Source: Deltaproteobacteria bacterium
GTDB lineage: Bacteria; Desulfobacterota; Binatia; Binatales; Binataceae
Direction of reading: 5' to 3'
Assembly: GCA_027317185.1 (NCBI GenBank)
Contig: DAHVFB010000004.1
Location: forward strand, 10,401-74,400
Length of the DNA stretch: 64,000 nt
The translations under genes and the position numbers were made by a program. Below the pieces are notes generated by a model. It was not told where the DNA came from. It did no database searches and saw only the letters and a list, made by a program, of their open reading frames with translations. Below, piece by piece: positions 9,942 to 21,443 of this stretch (within the stretch, counting starts at the first letter, position 1; each line of letters starts with the position of its first letter).

Positions 9942-10853
9942 ATGCGCGGACTAGCGAACCTGAACCCGATAGCGATCGGTAGTTGCGCGATCGCCTTGGC
10001 GCTGGCGGCGCTGGGGGCTGCCGGATGCGGTCCCACTTCGGCCGATGTCGAGCAGGTGAGCAGTAACCAGTTCGCATTGCGCGGGATGGTTGCCAGTGAT
10101 CGGCAGGAGATTGACGCGCTCAAGGACAAGGTCAGCCAGCTTCAGGATCAAATCGACGAGATGCGTCATAATGGCGCGGGAGGAGCGGTGCAGGGTAGCC
10201 GGGCGCTTCAGGCCCGCGTCACCAAGCTCGAAAACGCGGTCAAAGTTATGCAAGCAGGTACCGCTCCAGCGCCTGCCGCGGCGTTAGGTGGGGCTGCGGC
10301 CGGGACCGCAGGAGCGGATGCGAATGCGCCGACCAGTTCCATGCCCCCGCCCGAGTTCGGCGGACCGCCGGCGGTTGGAACCGGTGGCGAAGGCTCCGCT
10401 GCGCCGGCTGCCGCGAATCCGAATTGGCGCGCCTCGATCGACAGCGAGATCGTGGCGGCGCGTAACAGCTCCGATCCCGGCGCCGCGCTGTATCTCAAAG
10501 GTTTGCAGGAGCTTAAGGGCGGCCAGTATCAGGATGCCACCGCGCACTTTGGAAGCCTTATACGCCGCTTCCCGAAGTCGCCGCTGTCCGGTCCGGCCGA
10601 ATACTATTCGGCCAATGCCTTGTACGAGTCGGGCAAGTACGACCAGGCGGTGCTGCAATTTAACGACCTTGGGATGCGCTTTCCCAATGGCCGTTATACC
10701 TGCGCCGCGCTGCTGCGCGAGGGCCAGGCTTTCATGAAAATAAACGACCGCATCGACGCGCGATTGACGTTGCAGAAGCTGATTAACGACCATGCCGATT
10801 GTCCCGAATCGTCAGTCGCCAGCTCGATGATCAGGAACCTGGCGAGCGATTAG
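9942..10853 (+). CDS. cpoB: Tol-Pal system protein CpoB/YbgF (coiled coil plus TPR)
   Basis: lipoprotein-type signal (LGAAGCGP), coiled-coil segment, C-terminal TPR repeats; last gene of the tol-pal cluster. Confidence 0.85.
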   Translation: MRGLANLNPIAIGSCAIALALAALGAAGCGPTSADVEQVSSNQFALRGMVASDRQEIDALKDKVSQLQDQIDEMRHNGAGGAVQGSRALQARVTKLENAVKVMQAGTAPAPAAALGGAAAGTAGADANAPTSSMPPPEFGGPPAVGTGGEGSAAPAAANPNWRASIDSEIVAARNSSDPGAALYLKGLQELKGGQYQDATAHFGSLIRRFPKSPLSGPAEYYSANALYESGKYDQAVLQFNDLGMRFPNGRYTCAALLREGQAFMKINDRIDARLTLQKLINDHADCPESSVASSMIRNLASD

Positions 10854-10902
10854 TCTTGCTCACGGCCGCCGCATTCGTTAGTGCGGTGGCCGTGTCTTTT
10901 TT

Positions 10903-11841
10903 ATGGAAATAATTAGCGATCTCGAGGGACTTGCGCAGCGGCCATATCCGGTGGTGGCGCTAGGCAATTTCGACGGCGTTCATCTTGGACACCGCTCGAT
11001 TCTGAAGCAGGCCATCGATCGCGCCCGTGACTGCGGTGGTACCGCTTACGCGCTGACCTTCGATCCGTTGCCGGCCAAGCTGCTTTCTCCGCAACGCTCG
11101 CCATCCTTGCTGGTGACCCCGGCTGATAAGCTCGAGCTGCTGCGGACTGCGGGGGTCGATGGCGTGATCGTCATCGAGTTCACTTTGGAACTGAGCCGGG
11201 TCGGCGCGCGTGATTTTGTCCAACGCTACATTCTGGGCAAAATTGGCGCGCGTGCGGTAATCGTTGGTCATAGCGTGAGCTTCGGCCATCAGCGTGCGGG
11301 GAATGCCGCCGCGATGATCCAGTTCGGTCGCGAATTGGGCTTTCATACGATGGTGGCGGAGCCCGTAAAGGTCGATGGGGTCGAGGTGAGCTCGACCAAA
11401 ATCCGCCAACTGATTGGATCCGGTGATATCAAAGCAGCGGGACGTCTGCTTGGCCGCAATCACTTCCTGAGCGGGATAGTGGTCCGGGGCCGCGAGCGCG
11501 GCCGCCAAATGGGCTTCCCGACCGCAAATCTCCGCAGCGAGACCGAATGCATCCCGCCCGATGGCGTTTACGCCATCCGCGTAATCCTTGCCGATGGGGA
11601 ATACCCCGCGGTCACCAATATCGGGGTGCGCCCCACCTTTAACGAACCCGAGCGCACCATCGAGGCCCACATCTTCGACTTTGCGCGCGACCTGTATGGC
11701 CAGCGAATTAGGCTCGAGTTTGTCGAACGCATTCGCAGCGAACGCAAGTTCGAGTCATCGCAGGCGCTAGCCAGCCAGATCGCAGCCGATCTGAATCGCG
11801 CCCGCGAGATCCTCTCGATTGCCAACTCTGCGCGTGACTAG
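10903..11841 (+). CDS. ribF: bifunctional riboflavin kinase / FMN adenylyltransferase
   Basis: 312 aa; NFDGVHLGH nucleotidyltransferase motif plus C-terminal riboflavin kinase domain. Confidence 0.93.
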   Translation: MEIISDLEGLAQRPYPVVALGNFDGVHLGHRSILKQAIDRARDCGGTAYALTFDPLPAKLLSPQRSPSLLVTPADKLELLRTAGVDGVIVIEFTLELSRVGARDFVQRYILGKIGARAVIVGHSVSFGHQRAGNAAAMIQFGRELGFHTMVAEPVKVDGVEVSSTKIRQLIGSGDIKAAGRLLGRNHFLSGIVVRGRERGRQMGFPTANLRSETECIPPDGVYAIRVILADGEYPAVTNIGVRPTFNEPERTIEAHIFDFARDLYGQRIRLEFVERIRSERKFESSQALASQIAADLNRAREILSIANSARD

Positions 11842-15837: not shown

Positions 15838-16971
15838 ATGGCGAGTGCCGCAGCAGCCCATAATCCGCCGTTTCGCGCCGAGCAGGTGGGAAGCCTTCTG
15901 CGGCCGCCCGAACTGATGAAGGGCCGCGAGGAGCTGAAGGCGGGCAGACTTACCCCCGCGCAACTCCACGAAATTGAAGACCACGCGATCCGCGAGGTCG
16001 TCGCCTTTCAGGAACGCGTTGGCCTGCAGTCGGTCACCGATGGCGAGTACCGGCGCGAAACCTTTTTCAGCGCCTTTTATATGCAGGGGCTCGGCGGCTT
16101 GCAGTACGATTTCGAAACCCCCGGCGATTGGTTCTTCACCGATCGCAAGGGACACAAAATTCCGATGGTCAACATCAAGGTGACCGGCCGCAGTCAGTGG
16201 AAGCAGCCGGTGCATGTCGATGATTTCAAGTTCCTGAGCGCGCTGACCAAGCGGATGGTCAAGATCACCCTGCCGTCGCCGACGCATATCCATTGCCGCG
16301 CCGGGCGGGCCAATATTAGCAGCGCGGTATATCCCGACCTGGATCTGTTTTGGGACGACGTGGTCGATGCGTTTCGCAAAGAGCTGAAGGCGCTCGGCGA
16401 TGCGGGCTGCCGTTACGTCCAAATCGACGAGACCACGCTGCCCTGCCTGCCCGATCCGCACGCCCGCGAGCTGATGGCCAAGCGCCGCGAGGATTGGCGC
16501 AAGTTGATGCTCGAAATCTACCCCGCGATCATGAATCGATGCTTCGAGGGCCGGCCGGCCGGGATGCACCTCGCGATGCATCTGTGCCGTGGCAACAATC
16601 AGGGGCACTGGTCCTCGGAGGGCGGCTACGATCTGTTTGCCGACACGCTGTTCAACCAAATCAACGTCGATTCGTATTTCCTCGAATATGACACGCCGCG
16701 CGCCGGCACTTTTGAGCCGTTGCGCTTCGTTCCGAAAAACAAGACGGTGGTGCTCGGGCTGATCTCGACCAAGTTTCCTGAACTGGAATCCAAAGACGAA
16801 ATTAAGCGGCGTATCGATGAAGCGGCGAAATTCTGCGATCTCGATCAGCTCGCGCTGAGCCCGCAATGCGGCTTCGCCAGCGCCTATGCCGGCAACCCAA
16901 TCCCAACCGGCATCCAGGAAGCAAAGCTCAAGCTGGTGGTCGATACCGCGCGCGAGGTCTGGGGCGCATGA
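15838..16971 (+). CDS. metE: cobalamin-independent methionine synthase, short core type (MetE C-terminal-domain homolog)
   Basis: 377 aa; aligns to the MetE catalytic barrel with Zn ligands (H...C...E...C, MHLCRGN / SPQCGF). Confidence 0.8.
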   Translation: MASAAAAHNPPFRAEQVGSLLRPPELMKGREELKAGRLTPAQLHEIEDHAIREVVAFQERVGLQSVTDGEYRRETFFSAFYMQGLGGLQYDFETPGDWFFTDRKGHKIPMVNIKVTGRSQWKQPVHVDDFKFLSALTKRMVKITLPSPTHIHCRAGRANISSAVYPDLDLFWDDVVDAFRKELKALGDAGCRYVQIDETTLPCLPDPHARELMAKRREDWRKLMLEIYPAIMNRCFEGRPAGMHLAMHLCRGNNQGHWSSEGGYDLFADTLFNQINVDSYFLEYDTPRAGTFEPLRFVPKNKTVVLGLISTKFPELESKDEIKRRIDEAAKFCDLDQLALSPQCGFASAYAGNPIPTGIQEAKLKLVVDTAREVWGA

Positions 16972-16981
16972 ATTGCCGCTC

Positions 16982-18013
16982 GTGAATCTCGCGGACCATC
17001 CGCTGATGAAGGCCTGCCGCCGCGAGGCCGCGCCTTATACCCCCGTATGGCTGATGCGCCAGGCGGGCCGCTATATGCCGGAATATCGCGAAGTGCGGGA
17101 GAAATTCGGATTCCTCGCATTATGCACCCGGCCGGAAGTGGCGGCCGAGGTGACCGTCACCGCGGTGCGGCGGCTGGGCGTCGATGCGGCGATCATCTTT
17201 GCCGACATTCTGCTGCCGCTAATTCCGATGAAGCTCGGTCTGAGCTATGAAGCGGGCGGCGGTCCGCGAATTGAGCGGCGGGTGGCGAGCGCCGAAGACG
17301 TCAGCGCGCTGCGCGAAATCGAGCCGGCCGAATCGCTGTCGTTCGTGGCCGATGCGATCCGGATTGTGCGGCGCGAGCTGCCCGATCGTCCACTGATTGG
17401 CTTCGCCGGCGCACCCTTCACGCTCGCCTCGTACATGATCGAAGGCGGCTCCTCGCGCGACTACCGGCTGACTAAAACCTTCATGTATCGCGAACCGATG
17501 GCGTGGGATCGCCTGATGGGGATGCTGGCGAAAATTACCGGCAAATACCTTCAGATGCAGGCCGCGGCGGGCGCCGATTTGATCCAACTGTTCGATAGCT
17601 GGGTGGGCGCGCTTTCGCCGGCGGATTATCGCCGCTTCGTGATGCCATATTCGCGCGCCGCGCTCGCTCCGCTGGCGGGACGAATCCCCACAATCCACTT
17701 CGGTACCGGCACGGCGGGGCTGCTCGAAGCGATGCGCGAGGCGGGCGGCGATGTGATCGGAGTGGACTGGCGCGTCAACCTGCGCGAGGCCTGGTCGCGG
17801 TTGGGGAACGGCGTCGCGATTCAGGGCAATCTCGATCCGATGGTGCTGCTCGCCGAGACGGCGGAAATTCGTCGTCAGGTGAAGATCGTTCTCGAGCAGG
17901 CGGACGGCCGACCGGGACATATCTTCAATCTCGGCCACGGCATCCTTCCGCAAACGCCGGTCGACCATGCGATCGCGCTGGTGGACATGGTCCACGAACT
18001 GACCTCCCGCTAA
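16982..18013 (+). CDS. hemE: uroporphyrinogen decarboxylase
   Basis: PVWLMRQAGRYMPEY signature; start taken at GTG 16982 (or TTG 16973) because the ORF-track start at 16886 would overlap metE. Confidence 0.9.
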   Translation: MNLADHPLMKACRREAAPYTPVWLMRQAGRYMPEYREVREKFGFLALCTRPEVAAEVTVTAVRRLGVDAAIIFADILLPLIPMKLGLSYEAGGGPRIERRVASAEDVSALREIEPAESLSFVADAIRIVRRELPDRPLIGFAGAPFTLASYMIEGGSSRDYRLTKTFMYREPMAWDRLMGMLAKITGKYLQMQAAAGADLIQLFDSWVGALSPADYRRFVMPYSRAALAPLAGRIPTIHFGTGTAGLLEAMREAGGDVIGVDWRVNLREAWSRLGNGVAIQGNLDPMVLLAETAEIRRQVKIVLEQADGRPGHIFNLGHGILPQTPVDHAIALVDMVHELTSR

Positions 18014-18046
18014 GCAGCCCGACACTCGGCGCACTGCCACCGCCGC

Positions 18047-18074
18047 CATTCTGAGCGCCGCGAAGAATTCCGGG
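18047..18074 (+). repeat. left terminal inverted repeat of a cassette (CATTCTGAGCGCCGCGAAGAATTCCGGG)
   Basis: 25/27 identity with the reverse complement of 19081-19109; related to the arms of the MITE-like element at 48956-49047. Confidence 0.7.
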
Positions 18075-18213
18075 TTTCCCATACCGGAGAGAACTAAAAT
18101 TAACCGACCTTGATATCTATGGATTATTCTGTCTTGATCGGAACTTAATATTACTTAATTGATTTCCTGTTGTGTCAAGATTGTTTTCTGTTTTCGTGTG
18201 CGGAGGAAAAACT

Positions 18214-18759
18214 TTGAGCCTGTCAAAAATCCAATCTCTGTATGCGCCTTTGTTGGCGATCATGTTTAGTGTATGGGCATCGCAGGCTTGGGCTGGACCG
18301 GTCAGCGTTACGTTCAACGGCGACCTGCTCAACACGCTTGGCGGTGCTTGCAGCACCTCCGCCTATAACAGCCAGTGTCTCGTCGGGCCGTGTATCTGTC
18401 AGGAATTTGAAAATAAAAAAACCACCGGCAATTTGATTGGAAAAAACACCACCGAGGGCGACGGTGAAATCGACTTCACGATTGACAAAGGCCTCAAGGT
18501 TGGATCAAGCGCAGGGGATTGCTCGCCATTTCTGGCCAGTGCGTTTATTTCCGGCAGCAAGGATATAGAGCAGATAGACTTCAATGGCACGATCTGTTCG
18601 CCGCCGAATCCCGCTGCCGCGACCGCAAAACAGCCGATCGCTGGTGGCTGGGGAATGGAATCTTCATCGCACGGACATTCGGCCTTCGGTACCGTCTCGG
18701 GCGCAGCCGGCTTTAACGTCGTCAAGATAATTCTGCGATTCAAGGGCATCGGCGCTTGA
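18214..18759 (+). CDS. secreted cysteine-rich hypothetical protein (cassette cargo)
   Basis: GGAGGA Shine-Dalgarno 6 nt before TTG 18214 (ATG 18172 also possible); Sec signal ...FSVWASQAWA/GP; Gly/Ser/Thr-rich with about 8 Cys; AT-rich codons; paralog of the 44241-44894 gene. Confidence 0.6.
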   Translation: MSLSKIQSLYAPLLAIMFSVWASQAWAGPVSVTFNGDLLNTLGGACSTSAYNSQCLVGPCICQEFENKKTTGNLIGKNTTEGDGEIDFTIDKGLKVGSSAGDCSPFLASAFISGSKDIEQIDFNGTICSPPNPAAATAKQPIAGGWGMESSSHGHSAFGTVSGAAGFNVVKIILRFKGIGA

Positions 18760-18775
18760 GCTAAAGCGATCGCCC

Positions 18776-18852
18776 ACCCGGTCATATTTTCAATCTCGGC
18801 CACAGTATCCTGCCGCAAACGCGGTTGACCATGCGATCGCGCTGGTCGATAG
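18776..18852 (+). pseudogene. decayed duplicate of the hemE 3' end
   Basis: about 85% nucleotide identity to 17916-17993, which encodes GHIFNLGHGILPQTPVDHAIALVDM; a 1-bp indel breaks the frame. Confidence 0.75.
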
Positions 18853-18929
18853 CGCGAAGGCCAATTTTGCCGGCCTGTTCAGGTGTTACTTTTGCCAGTC
18901 CATGCCTGTGAAGAGGCACTCCTGAGAAG

Positions 18930-18951
18930 CCTCTCCCCGCGCCGGGAGAGG
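18930..18951. terminator. GC-rich hairpin, 8-bp perfect stem CCTCTCCC/GGGAGAGG with a 6-nt loop
   Basis: read directly from the sequence; no U-tract follows, so function is uncertain. Confidence 0.3.
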
Positions 18952-19080
18952 TGCCCAAGCATCCTTTGCGAGGGCGGTGAGGGACCATCAGCGGCGCGCC
19001 TCGCTTCGCGCGCGCCGTGTCGGGGTCTCGCATCCCGACCGGGACCGATTAGCAACACATCAGGTTATTTTCTAAAACAT

Positions 19081-19109
19081 CCGGGATTCTTCGCTGCGCT
19101 CAGAATGAC
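19081..19109 (-). repeat. right terminal inverted repeat of the cassette (reverse complement GTCATTCTGAGCGCAGCGAAGAATCCCGG)
   Basis: pairs with 18047-18074. Confidence 0.7.
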
Positions 19110-19129
19110 AGCACTACTTCTCAGCCCCG

Positions 19130-20194
19130 CTAATCTTCCAACTCGGGCTCCTTGCCATATTCTCGCAGCAGCAGAGAGAGTTTCCCGCCGTCGATTAATT
19201 CAATTGGGAGAGCCGCGGCAAATTCACGCGCTTGCAGCGTAAAGGTTGAGGTTGTGATCAATACGCCCTTTACGGCTTTTCGATCTGCAACAAGTGCTCC
19301 GTAAAATTCCCTGACCATTGCACTACCAACAGGCGAATCCACCGCGAACCGCTTGCACTGAAACAGATATCGTCCACCAATGACAGGGCGATCAAGTTGC
19401 GCCTCGATGTCGATACCTCCGTCACCCGTTACCCGCGTCATTTCGGCTACGAAACCCATCTTCCTAAGCAACGCTGTTACTAAACGCTCGAATTCCACTC
19501 CCGAAATAGCTCCGACGTCCGGCGGGACTTCGCTTAAAAGATCCGCGAACGTGTTATCAGGGCGTCCGAAGACCGGAAGCAGTTGCTGCACATCGTGCTC
19601 AGTGACGCGTTTGCTGTTGAGGCGCGCAATTATCAAACTGGCTTTTGCAGGACTTCCGTCTGCCAGCGACGCCAGCAATTCGAGAGCGGAAGCCTCAATC
19701 TCGATACCCAGTCTCGTCGCTATTCTTTCAGCGATTTGCACCATCTCAGCTTGAGGGTATGGCCGCATTCGGACAACGATGTTGAATAAGTTAAAAAGTT
19801 CAGATGGACAATCTGATTCCTTTTGTACAGCCGCGATGCAGGTAAATGGTTTCACGAGCAGGGGCATCAGATGAGACCCCGAGCCTTTCCCAACAACGAT
19901 GTTTAGCCTGAACTCACTCATTCCGGATGACAATATTTTCCGTAAGGGTCGCCTTAGGCGATTAACATTTTGAAAATAGAGAATATCGCCTTCTTCCAAA
20001 TTCGCCGCGATGGCGGCAAGATCGCCCGCTGCCTCGATGGTTGAACCATCGGCTACCCTGATGCTAACCCCTAGTTCGCGAGCGACCGCCTGCGCAATTG
20101 TGCCTTTGCCACATCCTTCCGGACCCACGAACAGAACGTGATCACAGACCCGCCCACTATCCTTAGCGAGCATTACTAGTGCAGTCAGCCGCAC
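19130..20194 (-). CDS. fusion protein: degenerate RuvB-like AAA+ module plus Mrr-type PD-(D/E)xK restriction-endonuclease domain
   Basis: N-terminal 200 aa collinear with RuvB ATPase large and small domains (LFVGPEGCGKGT / ILYFQNVNRL / LADGSPAKASLIIARL) but Walker B, sensor 1 and Arg finger are substituted; C-terminal ~130 aa is Mrr_cat (FERLVTALLRKMGF, GDGGIDIEA, YLFQCKRF, VREFYGAL); AT-rich codon usage; probable start at ATG 20173 (ORF-track start at 20194 is a GTG). Confidence 0.7.
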   Translation of the reverse strand: MRLTALVMLAKDSGRVCDHVLFVGPEGCGKGTIAQAVARELGVSIRVADGSTIEAAGDLAAIAANLEEGDILYFQNVNRLRRPLRKILSSGMSEFRLNIVVGKGSGSHLMPLLVKPFTCIAAVQKESDCPSELFNLFNIVVRMRPYPQAEMVQIAERIATRLGIEIEASALELLASLADGSPAKASLIIARLNSKRVTEHDVQQLLPVFGRPDNTFADLLSEVPPDVGAISGVEFERLVTALLRKMGFVAEMTRVTGDGGIDIEAQLDRPVIGGRYLFQCKRFAVDSPVGSAMVREFYGALVADRKAVKGVLITTSTFTLQAREFAAALPIELIDGGKLSLLLREYGKEPELED

Positions 20195-20420
20195 TGATGG
20201 CTTCTGCCTGGCCGACTATATCTATAAGGAGTCCAGCGCCCAGCTCATTTTCAGATTTGAGATCCAGAACTTTGGACGGATTTGTTGGGTCCATTGCCCC
20301 TCGCTTGAGAGCCTAAAATCGTCGGACAACCGATGTCACATTCTGGGATGCCGGCTCAAGTAGCTCAGCGATGGGCTGTGTGTTCAATTCAACCTCCGCA
20401 AACTTCCGGGGTTTTGGCAT
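20195..20420 (-). pseudogene. disrupted 5' portion of the RuvB-like gene (in-frame TAG at 20319-20321 plus a one-base frameshift near 20200)
   Basis: alternate-frame translation ...LGAGLLIDIVGQAEAIS continues into SVRLTALVMLAKDSGRVCDHVLF of the main frame; together these align to the RuvB segment [32 protein letters not shown]. Confidence 0.55.
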
Positions 20421-20510
20421 GATTCCTCTCAAAACGATTCGGCCGCCCTATTTGAGAAGATCGCGAGGGCTTCGCGCGGTGGCTGTGCGCGGGGTAAACT
20501 GCGATCCCAG

Positions 20511-21443
20511 ATGCGGTCGCCCTTCGATGCGGTAATGTTGATCGGATTCGGCGGACCGACCCGCCGCGAGGAGATTCGTCCGTTCCTCGATAATGTGCTG
20601 CGCGGCCGCCCGGTCAGTCCGGATCGTTTCGAGGAGGTGGTGGCGCATTACGAAAAAATCGGCGGGCGCTCGCCGTACAATGATCTCACGCTGCTACAGG
20701 CTGAGGCGCTCAAGGCTGAACTCGCGCGCGATGGAATCGCAATTCCAATTGTGACCGGAATGCGCAACTGGACGCCCTATATCGAAGAGACACTGGCTAG
20801 CCTCGCACATACCGGTGCGCGCCGCGTGCTCGGGTTTATCATGTCGGCCTTTCAATGCGAGGCCAGTTGGGAGCGCTATCAGGCCGCTGTCGCGCAGGCG
20901 CGATCGGACCTCGGCGCGTCAGCTCCGATAGTTGAATACGTTGAAGGCTGGTCCGCCCACCCATCGTTTGCACAGGCGGTCGCCGCGCGAATTGCCGAAA
21001 CCGCGCGCGCACTGAACGAAACCCATCGCCGCACCGCACGATTGGTCTTCACCGCGCACAGTATTCCGCTAGCGATGGCGGCAACCAGTCCCTACGTCGA
21101 TCAGCTTACCGCCGCCGCGCGCCGCGCCGCCGCATTGGCGGGATTTGAAAACTGGAGTATCGCGTATCAGAGCCGCAGCGGTAATCCGCGCGATCCGTGG
21201 CTTGTCCCCGATATCCGCGAGGCGATTCGCGCGCCCGGCGCACCCGATATAATTGTGATGCCGATCGGCTTCCTGTGCGACCATGTCGAGGTGCTGTACG
21301 ACCTCGATATCGAGGCGGTCTTGGTTGCGCGCGAGGCAGGCGTGCGGATGCTCCGTGCGCCGACCGTCGGCACGCATCCGGAATTTATACGAATGATGGC
21401 GGCGACGGTGCGGCGTCGGCTTGAGGGTGCGGACGCGTCCTGA
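20511..21443 (+). CDS. hemH: ferrochelatase
   Basis: 310 aa; FTAHSIP and IGFLCDHVEVLYDLD ferrochelatase signatures. Confidence 0.9.
   Translation: MRSPFDAVMLIGFGGPTRREEIRPFLDNVLRGRPVSPDRFEEVVAHYEKIGGRSPYNDLTLLQAEALKAELARDGIAIPIVTGMRNWTPYIEETLASLAHTGARRVLGFIMSAFQCEASWERYQAAVAQARSDLGASAPIVEYVEGWSAHPSFAQAVAARIAETARALNETHRRTARLVFTAHSIPLAMAATSPYVDQLTAAARRAAALAGFENWSIAYQSRSGNPRDPWLVPDIREAIRAPGAPDIIVMPIGFLCDHVEVLYDLDIEAVLVAREAGVRMLRAPTVGTHPEFIRMMAATVRRRLEGADAS

What the first reader, a model, noticed from the sequence alone, without database searches (positions are those of the whole stretch)
19130..20420. Dead RuvB-like AAA+ module fused to an intact Mrr-type nuclease, with a broken 5' end
Residues 20-200 of the 354-aa ORF are collinear with the RuvB ATPase large and small domains (LFVGPEGCGKGT vs GPPGLGKTT; GDLAAIAANLEEGDILYFQNVNRL vs GDLAA.LTNLE..DVLFIDEIHRL; LADGSPAKASLIIARL vs ARGTPRIANRLLRRV).

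Every catalytic element is substituted:
- Walker B DE became QN.
- Sensor-1 TT became AV.
- The Arg finger is gone.
- Walker A GK[T/S] became GKG.

The RuvB winged-helix domain is replaced by a complete Mrr_cat PD-(D/E)xK domain with its catalytic D, E and K intact (GDGGIDIEA...YLFQCKRF).

The 225 bp upstream still encode the RuvB N-terminus (...IDIVGQAEAIS matches [10 protein letters not shown]), but only across an in-frame TAG (20319-20321) and a one-base frameshift near 20200. The expressed product would therefore start at ATG 20173, inside the ATPase domain.

Codon usage is AT-rich and foreign, and the gene sits in an islet that splits hemE from hemH. I do not recognise a RuvB-scaffold-plus-Mrr architecture as a described family. 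It could be a junction- or branch-targeting nuclease (a defense or anti-plasmid candidate), or a decaying ruvB paralog.
Basis: partly seen in the sequence, partly recalled or inferred. Interest (0 to 1): 0.82.

Follow-up and report, generated by a model that had tools for sequence, protein, structure and literature searches.

The report
Dead RuvB scaffold fused to nuclease
This gene belongs to an undescribed but widespread family in soil Acidobacteriota and Binatia: a copy of the Holliday-junction motor RuvB that has lost its ATPase chemistry and swapped its DNA-binding head for a DNA-cutting domain. Synteny and hairpin evidence suggest it still docks onto the RuvA/RuvB recombination machinery; the copy in this window carries a one-base frameshift.

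Summary
ORF 19130-20194(-) has a RuvB large plus small AAA+ module (Pfam RuvB_N 1e-31; PDB RuvB 3e-33). It lacks Walker B, sensor 1, the Arg finger and sensor 2. A flexible linker joins it to an intact Mrr_cat nuclease (2e-27).

Corrections:
- There is one lesion, not two: a 1-nt insertion at 20192.
- The TAG is at 20313-20315, upstream of the likely native start ATG 20294, so it is not a lesion.
- The repaired protein is 387 aa.

The gene is not a decaying ruvB. At least 100 clusters at 50% identity share the architecture, the same degenerate ATPase motifs and invariant nuclease residues.

New findings:
- In 14 of 48 genomic loci the gene lies directly beside ruvB/ruvA, in three different arrangements.
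- Its presensor-1 beta-hairpin, the RuvA-domain-III docking site of RuvB, is 57% identical to the neighbouring RuvB's hairpin, against 30% for the rest of the module. Synonymous sites there are randomised, so this is protein-level co-variation.

Best reading: a non-motor, RuvA/RuvB-associated adaptor nuclease.

The window copy sits in a 2.5-kb insertion between hemE and hemH. A relative has these 7 bp apart. Apart from the frameshift the copy is undecayed. No literature was found.

The parts
19130..20294 (-). Whole gene of the RuvB-N/Mrr fusion family. It gives 387 codons if the extra base at 20192 is removed.
   Evidence: The N-terminal alignment with homologues joins IVGQAEAIS to RLTALV with the family's spacing. 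Homologues are typically 365-400 aa.
20163..20294 (-). 43-aa ORF. Its first 34 codons (MDPTNPSK...IVGQAEAIS) are the native N-terminus, carrying the conserved IVGQ motif.
   Evidence: G33 and Q34 (E. coli RuvB numbering) are kept in 98-99% of family members.
20192..20192 (-). Extra base causing the +1 frameshift, between AGT 20195-20193 and CGG 20191-20189.
   Evidence: The sequence is identical in the Logan assembly L090.
20297..20302 (-). GAGGGG Shine-Dalgarno-like motif upstream of ATG 20294.
   Evidence: Read directly from the sequence.
20313..20315 (-). It lies upstream of the probable start and is not part of the gene.
19130..20194 (-). Open 354-aa ORF downstream of the frameshift. The annotated product starts at ATG 20173.
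19766..20188 (-). RuvB-type large AAA+ domain. Walker A GPEGCGKGT is at 20099-20125, degenerate Walker B Q75/N76 at 19967-19972, and L136 in place of the Arg finger at 19787-19789.
   Evidence: Pfam RuvB_N 1.2e-31; motif tables
19841..19912 (-). Presensor-1 beta-hairpin FRLNIVVGKGSGSHLMPLLVKPFT (aa 95-118). In RuvB this is the RuvA-domain-III docking element.
   Evidence: It is the region that best retains RuvB-invariant residues in the family. It co-varies with the cognate RuvB. Its role in RuvB is described in PMC9477746.
19595..19759 (-). Small (lid) AAA+ domain. The sensor-2 Arg is replaced (GSPAK).
19511..19594 (-). Low-confidence linker that replaces the start of the RuvB head domain.
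   Evidence: AF2 pLDDT is 58-85 over aa 201-230.
19175..19510 (-). Mrr_cat PD-(D/E)xK nuclease domain. Catalytic-motif residues are E236 (19487-19489), D258 (19421-19423), D262 (19409-19411) and Q279-x-K281 (19352-19360).
   Evidence: Pfam Mrr_cat 1.7e-27; invariant columns
18014..20510 (.). Insertion of about 2.5 kb between hemE (16886-18013) and hemH (20511-21443). GC is 0.53 against 0.62-0.67 in the flanks.
   Evidence: A Binataceae relative has hemE and hemH 7 bp apart; composition

Best explanation
WHAT IT IS
The gene is a member of a conserved, uncharacterised family found mainly in Acidobacteriota and Binatia. The family is an old paralogue of the Holliday-junction motor RuvB.

The family keeps:
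- the RuvB N-terminal segment;
- the large and small AAA+ domains, which are the parts that oligomerise;
- the RuvB-specific presensor-1 beta-hairpin, which binds RuvA domain III in RuvB.

Family-wide it has lost:
- the Walker-A Thr;
- the Walker-B acidic pair;
- the sensor-1 polar residue;
- the Arg finger;
- usually the sensor-2 Arg.

The Walker-A Lys is mostly kept, so nucleotide binding is possible but hydrolysis is very unlikely. The DNA-binding head domain has been replaced, via a flexible linker, by a catalytically intact Mrr-type PD-QxK nuclease.

HOW IT MOST LIKELY WORKS (INFERRED)
The dead RuvB scaffold acts as an adaptor. It docks on RuvA domain III, and/or joins RuvB assemblies, at RuvA-bound Holliday junctions or reversed forks. 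This positions the tethered nuclease to cut a DNA arm. The protein would then be a RuvA/RuvB-associated accessory nuclease rather than a motor.

THE COPY IN THIS WINDOW
- It sits in a 2.5-kb insertion between hemE and hemH.
- It carries a single +1 frameshift at 20192 that detaches the first 34 codons.
- It shows no other decay.
- It is therefore either very recently inactivated or expressed only as an N-terminally truncated protein.

SHOWN VERSUS INFERRED
Shown here: the architecture, the motif losses, family conservation, synteny, hairpin co-variation, the insertion and the frameshift. Inferred: RuvA binding, nuclease activity and the substrate.
For: ARCHITECTURE AND MOTIFS
- Domain assignments, motif losses and the structural model.

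A CONSERVED FAMILY, NOT DECAY
- 520 hits in the first search; the best 120 all carry RuvB_N plus Mrr_cat.
- About 100 full-length representatives of clusters at 50% identity.
- None of 47 representatives checked combines the Walker-A Lys, an acidic Walker-B pair and R174.
- R174 is absent in all 120 close homologues.
- The nuclease residues are invariant.
- The window copy deviates at 1 of 83 highly conserved columns.

LINK TO RuvAB
1. Synteny. 14 of 48 full-length genomic loci have the gene directly beside ruvB/ruvA, in three arrangements:
   - convergent (the gene facing ruvB-ruvA);
   - tandem ruvC-ruvA-ruvB-gene, with 18-75 bp gaps;
   - gene-ruvA-ruvB.
   These arrangements occur on several deep branches and in both phyla.
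2. Neighbours. Among 150 neighbouring genes from 41 loci, the only recurrent families are RuvB (11), RuvA (7-8) and HPPK (5).
3. Hairpin retention. The presensor-1 hairpin retains RuvB-invariant residues best: 71%, against 17-20% at the catalytic segments.
4. Hairpin co-variation.
   - The hairpin is 57% identical to that of the RuvB encoded next door, against 42% to other genomes' RuvBs.
   - The rest of the module shows 30% against 28%.
   - The cognate excess peaks at RuvB residues 132-155 (+0.16) and is about 0 outside the 76-171 region; a weaker shoulder (+0.07 to +0.08) lies at 76-115.
   - This is the region where RuvB itself varies most between genomes.
5. Not gene conversion. Only 43 of 137 codons are identical at identical residues.
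6. RuvA domain III is visibly divergent in the clade whose RuvB and family-member hairpins are both atypical (qualitative only).

BACKGROUND FROM THE LITERATURE
- RuvA domain III binds the RuvB presensor-1 hairpin plus helix alpha3.
- The head domain binds DNA.
- The large and small domains drive oligomerisation (PMC9477746).
- R174 is the Arg finger (PMC10071043).

INSERTION AND FRAMESHIFT
-.
Against: - No binding or activity data exist. RuvA docking is inferred only from synteny and co-variation.
- 34 of 48 loci, including this window, have the gene away from ruvAB.
- Helix alpha3, the other half of the RuvA-D3 interface, retains only 30% of RuvB-invariant residues.
- The hairpin analysis rests on 10 gene pairs, about 7 independent lineages.
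- The window copy has His in place of the near-invariant hairpin Arg.
- No LexA-box-like motif lies upstream of family members.
- The gene's GC is about 5 points below its flanks almost everywhere. Its distribution is patchy. It lies in an insertion here. These are features more typical of accessory or defence genes.
- The nuclease domain's best profile matches are type IV restriction models.
Confidence: 0.5

Rival explanations
1. A stand-alone Mrr-type (type IV-like or abortive-infection) defence nuclease. The dead AAA+ module serves only as an oligomerisation or sensing scaffold, independent of RuvA/RuvB. The adjacency to ruvAB would then be a relic of its birth by tandem duplication of ruvB.
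For: - The nuclease domain best matches PADLOC mREase_IV (1.1e-19), PDC-S02 and the ZorD C-terminus.
- The closest solved sequence is MspJI, weakly (E 0.086).
- The gene is about 5 GC points below its flanks in nearly all genomes.
- It is found in few species.
- In this window it lies in a 2.5-kb insertion.
- One homologue sits next to phage-like genes (Peptidase_S78).
- A few neighbours are integrases, PIN proteins or single defence-model hits.
- Tandem ruvB-gene arrangements fit an origin by duplication.
Against: - No recurrent defence partner or defence-island context among 150 neighbours.
- No full-length copy in 2.9 million IMG/VR contigs or in PLSDB plasmids.
- No whole-protein defence model matches.
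- A relic of duplication does not explain why the hairpin, and essentially only the hairpin, tracks the cognate RuvB at protein level while synonymous sites are randomised.
- It also does not explain why adjacency persists in three arrangements across lineages whose copies are only about 40% identical.
Confidence: 0.3
2. The frameshift is a sequencing or consensus error, or a minority allele. The gene in this organism would then be intact (387 aa from ATG 20294).
For: - The rest of the gene is undecayed: 1 deviation in 83 conserved columns, the lowest of 105 sequences.
- Removing one base restores the exact family spacing VGQ-5aa-RL.
- The Logan contig breaks inside the gene at 19964, which may indicate population heterogeneity.
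- The two assemblies probably derive from the same reads.
Against: - Two assemblers give identical sequence over 577 bp, including the site.
- The site is not a homopolymer.
- The other ORFs of 150 aa or more in the window show no obviously split genes; only ORF lengths were inspected.
Confidence: 0.2
3. A decaying ruvB paralogue: the motif losses are pseudogene-like erosion in this genome.
For: - All hydrolysis motifs are lost, and there is a frameshift at the 5' end.
Against: - The same losses occur throughout a large family with invariant nuclease residues and a conserved fold.
- The window copy matches 82 of 83 conserved columns.
- The fusion partner is conserved in all 120 top homologues.
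Confidence: 0.03

Closest known systems
RuvB, the Holliday-junction branch-migration AAA+ motor (Pfam RuvB_N + AAA_lid_4 + RuvB_C; NCBIfam NF000868/TIGR00635)
   Same: - N-terminal segment with the conserved GQ motif.
- Large AAA+ domain with the RuvB-specific presensor-1 beta-hairpin.
- Lid domain.
- Best sequence and fold matches in the PDB.
- Often encoded next to ruvA/ruvB.
   Different: - No Walker-B DE, sensor-1 Thr, Arg finger R174 or sensor-2 Arg.
- The Walker-A Thr is replaced.
- The winged-helix head, with its DNA-binding arginines, is absent and replaced by a nuclease.
- It scores 141.6 bits against an equivalog cut-off of 282.
E. coli Mrr and related type IV restriction endonucleases (Mrr_N winged helix + Mrr_cat)
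   Same: - C-terminal Mrr_cat PD-QxK nuclease domain with GDGGxD...QxK motifs.
- PADLOC mREase_IV hits over the nuclease part.
   Different: - The N-terminal targeting module is a dead RuvB AAA+ scaffold, not a winged-helix domain that reads modified DNA.
- No defence-island context.
RuvC (and RecU, Hjc): resolvases that act on RuvA/RuvB-bound Holliday junctions
   Same: - Proposed role as a nuclease acting at the RuvAB-junction complex.
- Encoded in ruvC-ruvA-ruvB-gene operon-like arrays in some genomes.
- Hjc and RecU are also PD-(D/E)xK enzymes (own knowledge).
   Different: - No RuvC fold.
- ruvC is still present beside it in several genomes, so it is not a simple replacement.
- Recruitment would be through a RuvB-derived adaptor.
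- Junction specificity is untested.
McrBC, and ZorD of Zorya: NTPase modules coupled to PD-(D/E)xK nucleases
   Same: - An AAA+ or helicase module is combined with a restriction-type nuclease.
- The ZorD C-terminal Mrr-like domain matches at 4.7e-11.
   Different: - In those systems the NTPase is an active motor.
- McrB and McrC are separate subunits.
- There is no homology outside the nuclease domain.
- Here the NTPase is inactive and derived from RuvB.
MspJI (PDB 4F0P), the closest solved sequence for the nuclease domain
   Same: - Weak similarity over the GDGGxD...TT.F core (E 0.086).
   Different: - MspJI has an SRA-like N-terminal domain that reads 5-methylcytosine.
- The similarity is marginal.

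Membership tests
RuvB (NCBIfam equivalogs NF000868 / TIGR00635) | Whole-protein score at or above the curated equivalog cut-off | tested here: not met
   141.6 bits against 282, and 134.1 against 299. Intact homologues P0002 and P0009 also fail, at 177-179 bits.
RuvB | RuvB-type large AAA+ domain with the presensor-1 beta-hairpin (Pfam RuvB_N) | tested here: met
   PF05496 scores 110 bits against a cut-off of 27, E=1.2e-31. The hairpin aligns without gaps.
RuvB | Catalytic set: Walker A GK[T/S], Walker B DE, sensor-1 Thr, Arg finger R174, sensor-2 Arg | tested here: not met
   The window has GKG, QN, V, L and A. R174 is absent in all 120 homologues. No complete set was found in 47 diverse representatives.
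RuvB | C-terminal winged-helix head domain (PF05491) with DNA-binding arginines | tested here: not met
   No RuvB_C hit. Residues 229-340 are Mrr_cat. The role of the head domain is described in PMC9477746.
RuvB | Binds RuvA domain III through the presensor-1 hairpin | not testable with these tools
   Indirect support only: retention of hairpin residues, and hairpin-specific co-variation with the cognate RuvB without codon identity.
Mrr_cat PD-(D/E)xK nuclease domain (PF04471) | Profile match above the gathering score | tested here: met
   96.3 bits against 21, E=1.7e-27, covering profile positions 3-112 of 115.
Mrr_cat PD-(D/E)xK nuclease domain (PF04471) | Catalytic-motif residues present (E ... 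GDGGxD ... QxK) | tested here: met
   E236, D258, D262, Q279 and K281 are present in the window and invariant in 40 aligned members. Actual nuclease activity cannot be tested here.
Type IV restriction enzyme of the Mrr type (PADLOC mREase_IV) | N-terminal DNA-binding (modified-DNA reader) domain plus the Mrr nuclease; full-length model match | tested here: not met
   The PADLOC match covers only aa 222-345 of the protein and positions 164-293 of 317 in the profile. There is no Pfam hit to an Mrr N-terminal domain.
Anti-phage defence system (any PADLOC model, or defence-island context) | Whole-protein defence model, or recurrent defence-gene neighbourhood | tested here: not met
   Only nuclease-domain and weak P-loop hits. 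Among 150 neighbours there is no recurrent defence family; the DolB and IetA hits number 9 and 8 members, similar to the 11 RuvB neighbours, and are probably cross-hits to them (member identities were not checked). Absent from IMG/VR and PLSDB.
NA-iREase1 (PF22722, inactive restriction-endonuclease domain) | Best-scoring family for the domain, with loss of catalytic residues | tested here: not met
   32.8 bits against a cut-off of 27, far weaker than Mrr_cat at 96.3 bits. The catalytic residues are intact.

The most novel reading that the evidence does not exclude
The family is a RuvA-docked nuclease: a hydrolysis-dead RuvB mimic that uses the RuvB presensor-1 hairpin to sit on RuvA domain III at Holliday junctions or reversed forks and cut DNA there. 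It would be a previously unrecognised fourth component, or an alternative processing arm, of the RuvABC machinery in Acidobacteriota and Binatia. It could also be exploited to destroy branched phage replication intermediates.
Probability: 0.4. Interest if true: 0.85.

Novelty: new variant of a known kind. Interest (0 to 1): 0.68.

Why it matters
RuvABC is a textbook recombination machine, thought to consist of a junction binder, a motor and a resolvase.

A conserved RuvB pseudo-ATPase that carries its own nuclease would add a new type of accessory factor. It is encoded beside ruvAB in several lineages, and its RuvA-docking hairpin co-evolves with that of the real motor. It would be a clear case of a dead AAA+ subunit reused as a targeting adaptor.

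The idea is directly testable by RuvA-D3 binding, junction cleavage and hairpin swaps. It would inform recombination and fork processing in two abundant but poorly studied soil phyla.

If the protein instead acts alone, it is still a new domain architecture for Mrr-type nucleases.

Tried and rejected
- PADLOC, NCBIfam and PHROGs give no whole-protein family; only domain-level hits.
- Six literature searches found nothing on this architecture. The one 'RuvB-like' mention, in a jumbo-phage review, was irrelevant.
- IMG/VR and PLSDB contain only isolated Mrr or RuvB matches.
- A LexA/SOS-box search upstream of 49 family genes showed no enrichment, and no shared 8-mer.
- The hemE/hemH context is not shared by any other locus.
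- The sigma-70 promoter and terminator scan of the islet was uninformative.
- Gene conversion as the cause of hairpin similarity was rejected on codon identity, 43 of 137.
- Low GC as evidence of recent foreign origin here was rejected, because it is a family-wide property.
- The TAG as a lesion was rejected.
- The afdb50 fold library was unavailable.
- The exact-sequence lookup of P0001 found no contig. The locus was reached through its hemH neighbour instead.
Full report
1. WHAT IS IN THE SEQUENCE

On the minus strand, ORF 19130-20194 encodes 354 aa from GTG. Starting at ATG 20173 gives a 347-aa product. That product is identical to a database protein annotated 'restriction endonuclease' from a Candidatus Binataceae MAG.

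Domain assignments:
- Pfam places RuvB_N on residues 3-143 (E=1.2e-31; profile positions 19-159 of 159, so the first 18 profile positions are missing).
- Pfam places Mrr_cat on residues 229-340 (E=1.7e-27).
- NCBIfam's RuvB equivalogs align to residues 3-192 but score 141.6 bits against a cut-off of 282.
- The best PDB sequence matches are all RuvB (T. maritima 1IN4 family, E about 3e-33, residues 4-192).
- An AlphaFold2 model built on a 40-member family alignment has mean pLDDT 88.7. It has a low-confidence linker around residues 205-230.
- Its top Foldseek matches are RuvB chains, E about 2e-22.

- Walker A GKTT becomes GKGT.
- Walker B DE becomes QN.
- Sensor-1 TT becomes VQ.
- Arg finger R174 becomes Leu.

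R174 as the Arg finger is confirmed in PMC10071043.

2. THE 5' END

Homologues carry a conserved N-terminal 'xIVGQ-5aa-RLxxLV' segment. In the window, IVGQAEAIS lies in the frame of a 43-aa ORF (20163-20294, MDPTNPSK...). RLTALV lies in the main frame.

The two frames are separated by exactly one extra base at 20192, between AGT 20195-20193 and CGG 20191-20189. Removing it gives a 387-aa protein, in the typical 365-400 aa range.

ATG 20294 is preceded by GAGGGG. It gives 50 residues before the conserved His. Homologues have 30-60 residues there.

The TAG is at 20313-20315, not 20319-20321. It lies six codons upstream of this ATG. It is therefore outside the gene. There is one lesion, not two.

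A Logan assembly of run SRR12886061 is 100% identical over 577 bp covering the frameshift site. The frameshift is therefore not specific to one assembler, though the reads are probably the same.

The other ORFs of 150 aa or more in the window show no obviously split genes, although only ORF lengths were inspected. Apart from the frameshift, the copy deviates at only 1 of 83 columns conserved in at least 85% of the family. That is the lowest count among 105 sequences. The one deviation is Arg to His in the hairpin 'GAR'. Any inactivation is therefore recent.

3. NOT A DECAYING ruvB BUT A CONSERVED FAMILY

- The word-indexed search returned 520 proteins. The best 120 all carry RuvB_N plus Mrr_cat.
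- An exhaustive profile search lists about 100 full-length representatives of 50%-identity clusters among its best 150.
- Across 120 members, the Walker-B pair is E/R/S/Q followed by N/D. R174 is never Arg. Sensor-1 is V/A/C. Sensor-2 is mostly G/H/A. The Walker-A Thr is usually Arg. The Walker-A Lys is kept in 75%.
- None of 47 diverse representatives combines the Lys, an acidic Walker-B pair and R174.
- One Planctomycetales copy (L033) still has LFIDEIH.
- The nuclease domain is the most conserved part. E236, D258, D262, Q279 and K281 are invariant.
- Full-length genomic copies are almost all in Acidobacteriota (Terriglobia) and Binatia MAGs from peat and soil.

4. CONTEXT: THE UNEXPECTED LINK TO ruvAB

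One homologue first turned up convergent with ruvB-ruvA. Screening 48 full-length loci found ruvB/ruvA immediately adjacent in 14. The arrangements are:
- gene facing ruvB-ruvA (L014-L020, including a Binatia genome that also has ruvC);
- ruvC-ruvA-ruvB-gene on one strand, with 18-75 bp gaps (L038, L042, L047, L051, L054);
- gene-ruvA-ruvB (L029).

On a neighbour-joining tree these arrangements occupy several deep branches. L054 is a Binatia relative 51-53% identical to the window protein. It has the ruvCAB-gene arrangement.

I scanned 150 flanking genes, two either side in 41 loci. The only recurrent Pfam families were RuvB (11), RuvA (7-8) and HPPK (5). PADLOC found no recurrent defence partner. 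The DolB and IetA hits (9 and 8 members) are similar in number to the 11 RuvB neighbours and are probably cross-hits to them, though the member identities were not checked.

There is no full-length copy in IMG/VR or PLSDB.

5. HAIRPIN CO-VARIATION

Published background (Wald et al. 2022, PMC9477746):
- RuvB binds DNA through its head domain.
- RuvB oligomerises through its large and small ATPase domains.

The family keeps exactly the oligomerisation and hairpin parts, and replaces the head.

RuvB-invariant residues are retained as follows:
- 71% in the hairpin;
- 64% around Walker A;
- 17% in Walker B;
- 20% in the sensor-1/Arg-finger segment.

For ten loci that encode both proteins:
- The family member's hairpin is 57-58% identical to the neighbouring RuvB's hairpin. 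The rest of the AAA+ module is 30% identical.
- Against non-cognate RuvBs the hairpin figure falls to 42%. The rest stays at 28%.
- In a sliding window the cognate excess peaks at RuvB residues 132-155 (+0.16). A weaker shoulder (+0.07 to +0.08) lies at 76-115. The excess is about zero outside 76-171.
- This peak is where RuvB itself is most variable between genomes, at 0.53.
- Atypical RuvB hairpins are mirrored. In L038, RuvB has ...DKGMFARTINVPLKRFT and the family member has ...NKGIFAKTIRVPLKRFT.
- At identical residues only 43 of 137 codons are identical. This is protein-level selection, not recent gene conversion.
- RuvA domain III is also visibly different in that clade (qualitative).

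The simplest explanation is a shared, co-evolving ligand, which would be RuvA domain III.

Caveats: the sample is ten pairs, about seven independent lineages. Helix alpha3 is less conserved, at 30%.

6. THE ISLET

A Binataceae relative (hemH 70% identical) has hemE-hemH-hemY-dinB contiguous, with 7 bp between hemE and hemH. In the window 2.5 kb lies between them, at GC 0.53 against 0.62-0.67 in the flanks.

The islet is composite:
- The last 79 bp of hemE (17907-17985) recur at 18772-18849, at 86-93% identity. This copy is frameshifted and diverges after ...ALVD.
- Together the two copies bracket an 865-bp unit. That unit carries a 195-aa ORF with no family match. Its N-terminus reads like a signal peptide (my reading of the sequence).

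Family genes run about 5 GC points below their flanks in 30 of 32 loci, including those inside ruv operons. Low GC here is therefore not by itself evidence of recent import. No ruvABC lies within the 64-kb window.

7. MECHANISM AND RIVALS

My best reading (confidence about 0.5) is a non-motor adaptor nuclease. The dead RuvB scaffold oligomerises and/or docks on RuvA domain III or RuvB assemblies at junctions or reversed forks. The flexibly tethered Mrr-type nuclease then cuts DNA.

Rivals:
- A stand-alone type IV-like or defence nuclease, with the synteny a birth relic (about 0.3). It fits the nuclease-domain matches, the patchy and low-GC character, and the insertion seen here. It does not explain the hairpin-specific co-variation. 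The two readings could combine as a RuvA-dependent defence nuclease.
- The frameshift is an error and the gene is intact (about 0.2).
- A decaying ruvB paralogue. This is refuted at the family level.

8. NOVELTY

No paper in the searchable library describes a RuvB_N plus Mrr_cat protein. Databases carry only automatic names.

I rate it a new variant of known kinds: an Mrr-type nuclease with a new targeting module, and a RuvB pseudo-ATPase paralogue. If RuvA docking is verified, it would be a new accessory component of a textbook machine.

Noticed in passing
window 17907-17985 and 18772-18849: The last 79 bp of hemE are duplicated 865 bp downstream at 86-93% identity. The downstream copy is frameshifted and diverges after ...ALVD, so it looks like a relic hemE 3' end displaced by a small insertion that supplied a new gene end.
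   Followed up: partly
window 18172-18759 (+): A 195-aa ORF inside that 865-bp unit. Its N-terminus reads like a signal peptide (...SVWASQAWA|GPV) and it contains several cysteines (my reading of the sequence). It has no Pfam or PHROGs match. GC is 0.53.
   Followed up: partly
window 18042-18073 and 19081-19112: A 32-nt inverted repeat, 88% complementary, containing CATTCTGAGCGC(A/C)GCGAAGAAT. One arm lies just after the hemE stop and the other just after the stop of the fusion gene. The core motif also occurs in unrelated loci L068 (4017-4038) and L074 (3380-3401), so it may be a widespread short repeat element.
   Followed up: partly
L090 (Logan SRR12886061 contig), end at window 19964: The independent assembly breaks inside the fusion gene, at window position 19964. 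This could reflect strain heterogeneity or a coverage change at this locus.
   Followed up: no
L049, L052, L054, L059 (family gene at about 10001-11060, or 4150-5127 in L052): Four other MAG copies of the family gene are split across reading frames. Three come from 'MFD' bins that I believe are long-read assemblies, where indel errors are plausible. L052 is a bog MAG that I believe is short-read. Whether the family is prone to frameshift inactivation is open.
   Followed up: partly
L033:724-2070: A copy in a MAG labelled Planctomycetales keeps a RuvB-identical Walker B (LFIDEIH) but still lacks the Arg finger (LRRAL). It may be an intermediate state in the loss of ATPase function.
   Followed up: no
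P0241, P0245, P0270, P0281, P0311, P0339: Some family representatives are 550-1230 aa long. The fusion module starts 160-290 residues in, so they have undescribed N-terminal extensions or additional domains.
   Followed up: no
L038, L042, L047 (ruvC-ruvA-ruvB-gene clade): RuvA in this clade is very divergent: only 27-35% identical to E. coli RuvA in the L042 and L047 blast hits (L038's RuvA gave no hit). All three have a distinct domain III. The RuvB hairpin in L038 and L047 is atypical (DKG.FA[RK]T). In L054 the RuvB next to the gene is only 32% identical to E. coli RuvB.
   Followed up: partly
window 20511 vs 20535: The hemH start differs between the longest ORF (310 aa, matching relatives' length) and the database product (302 aa, P0121).
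   Followed up: no
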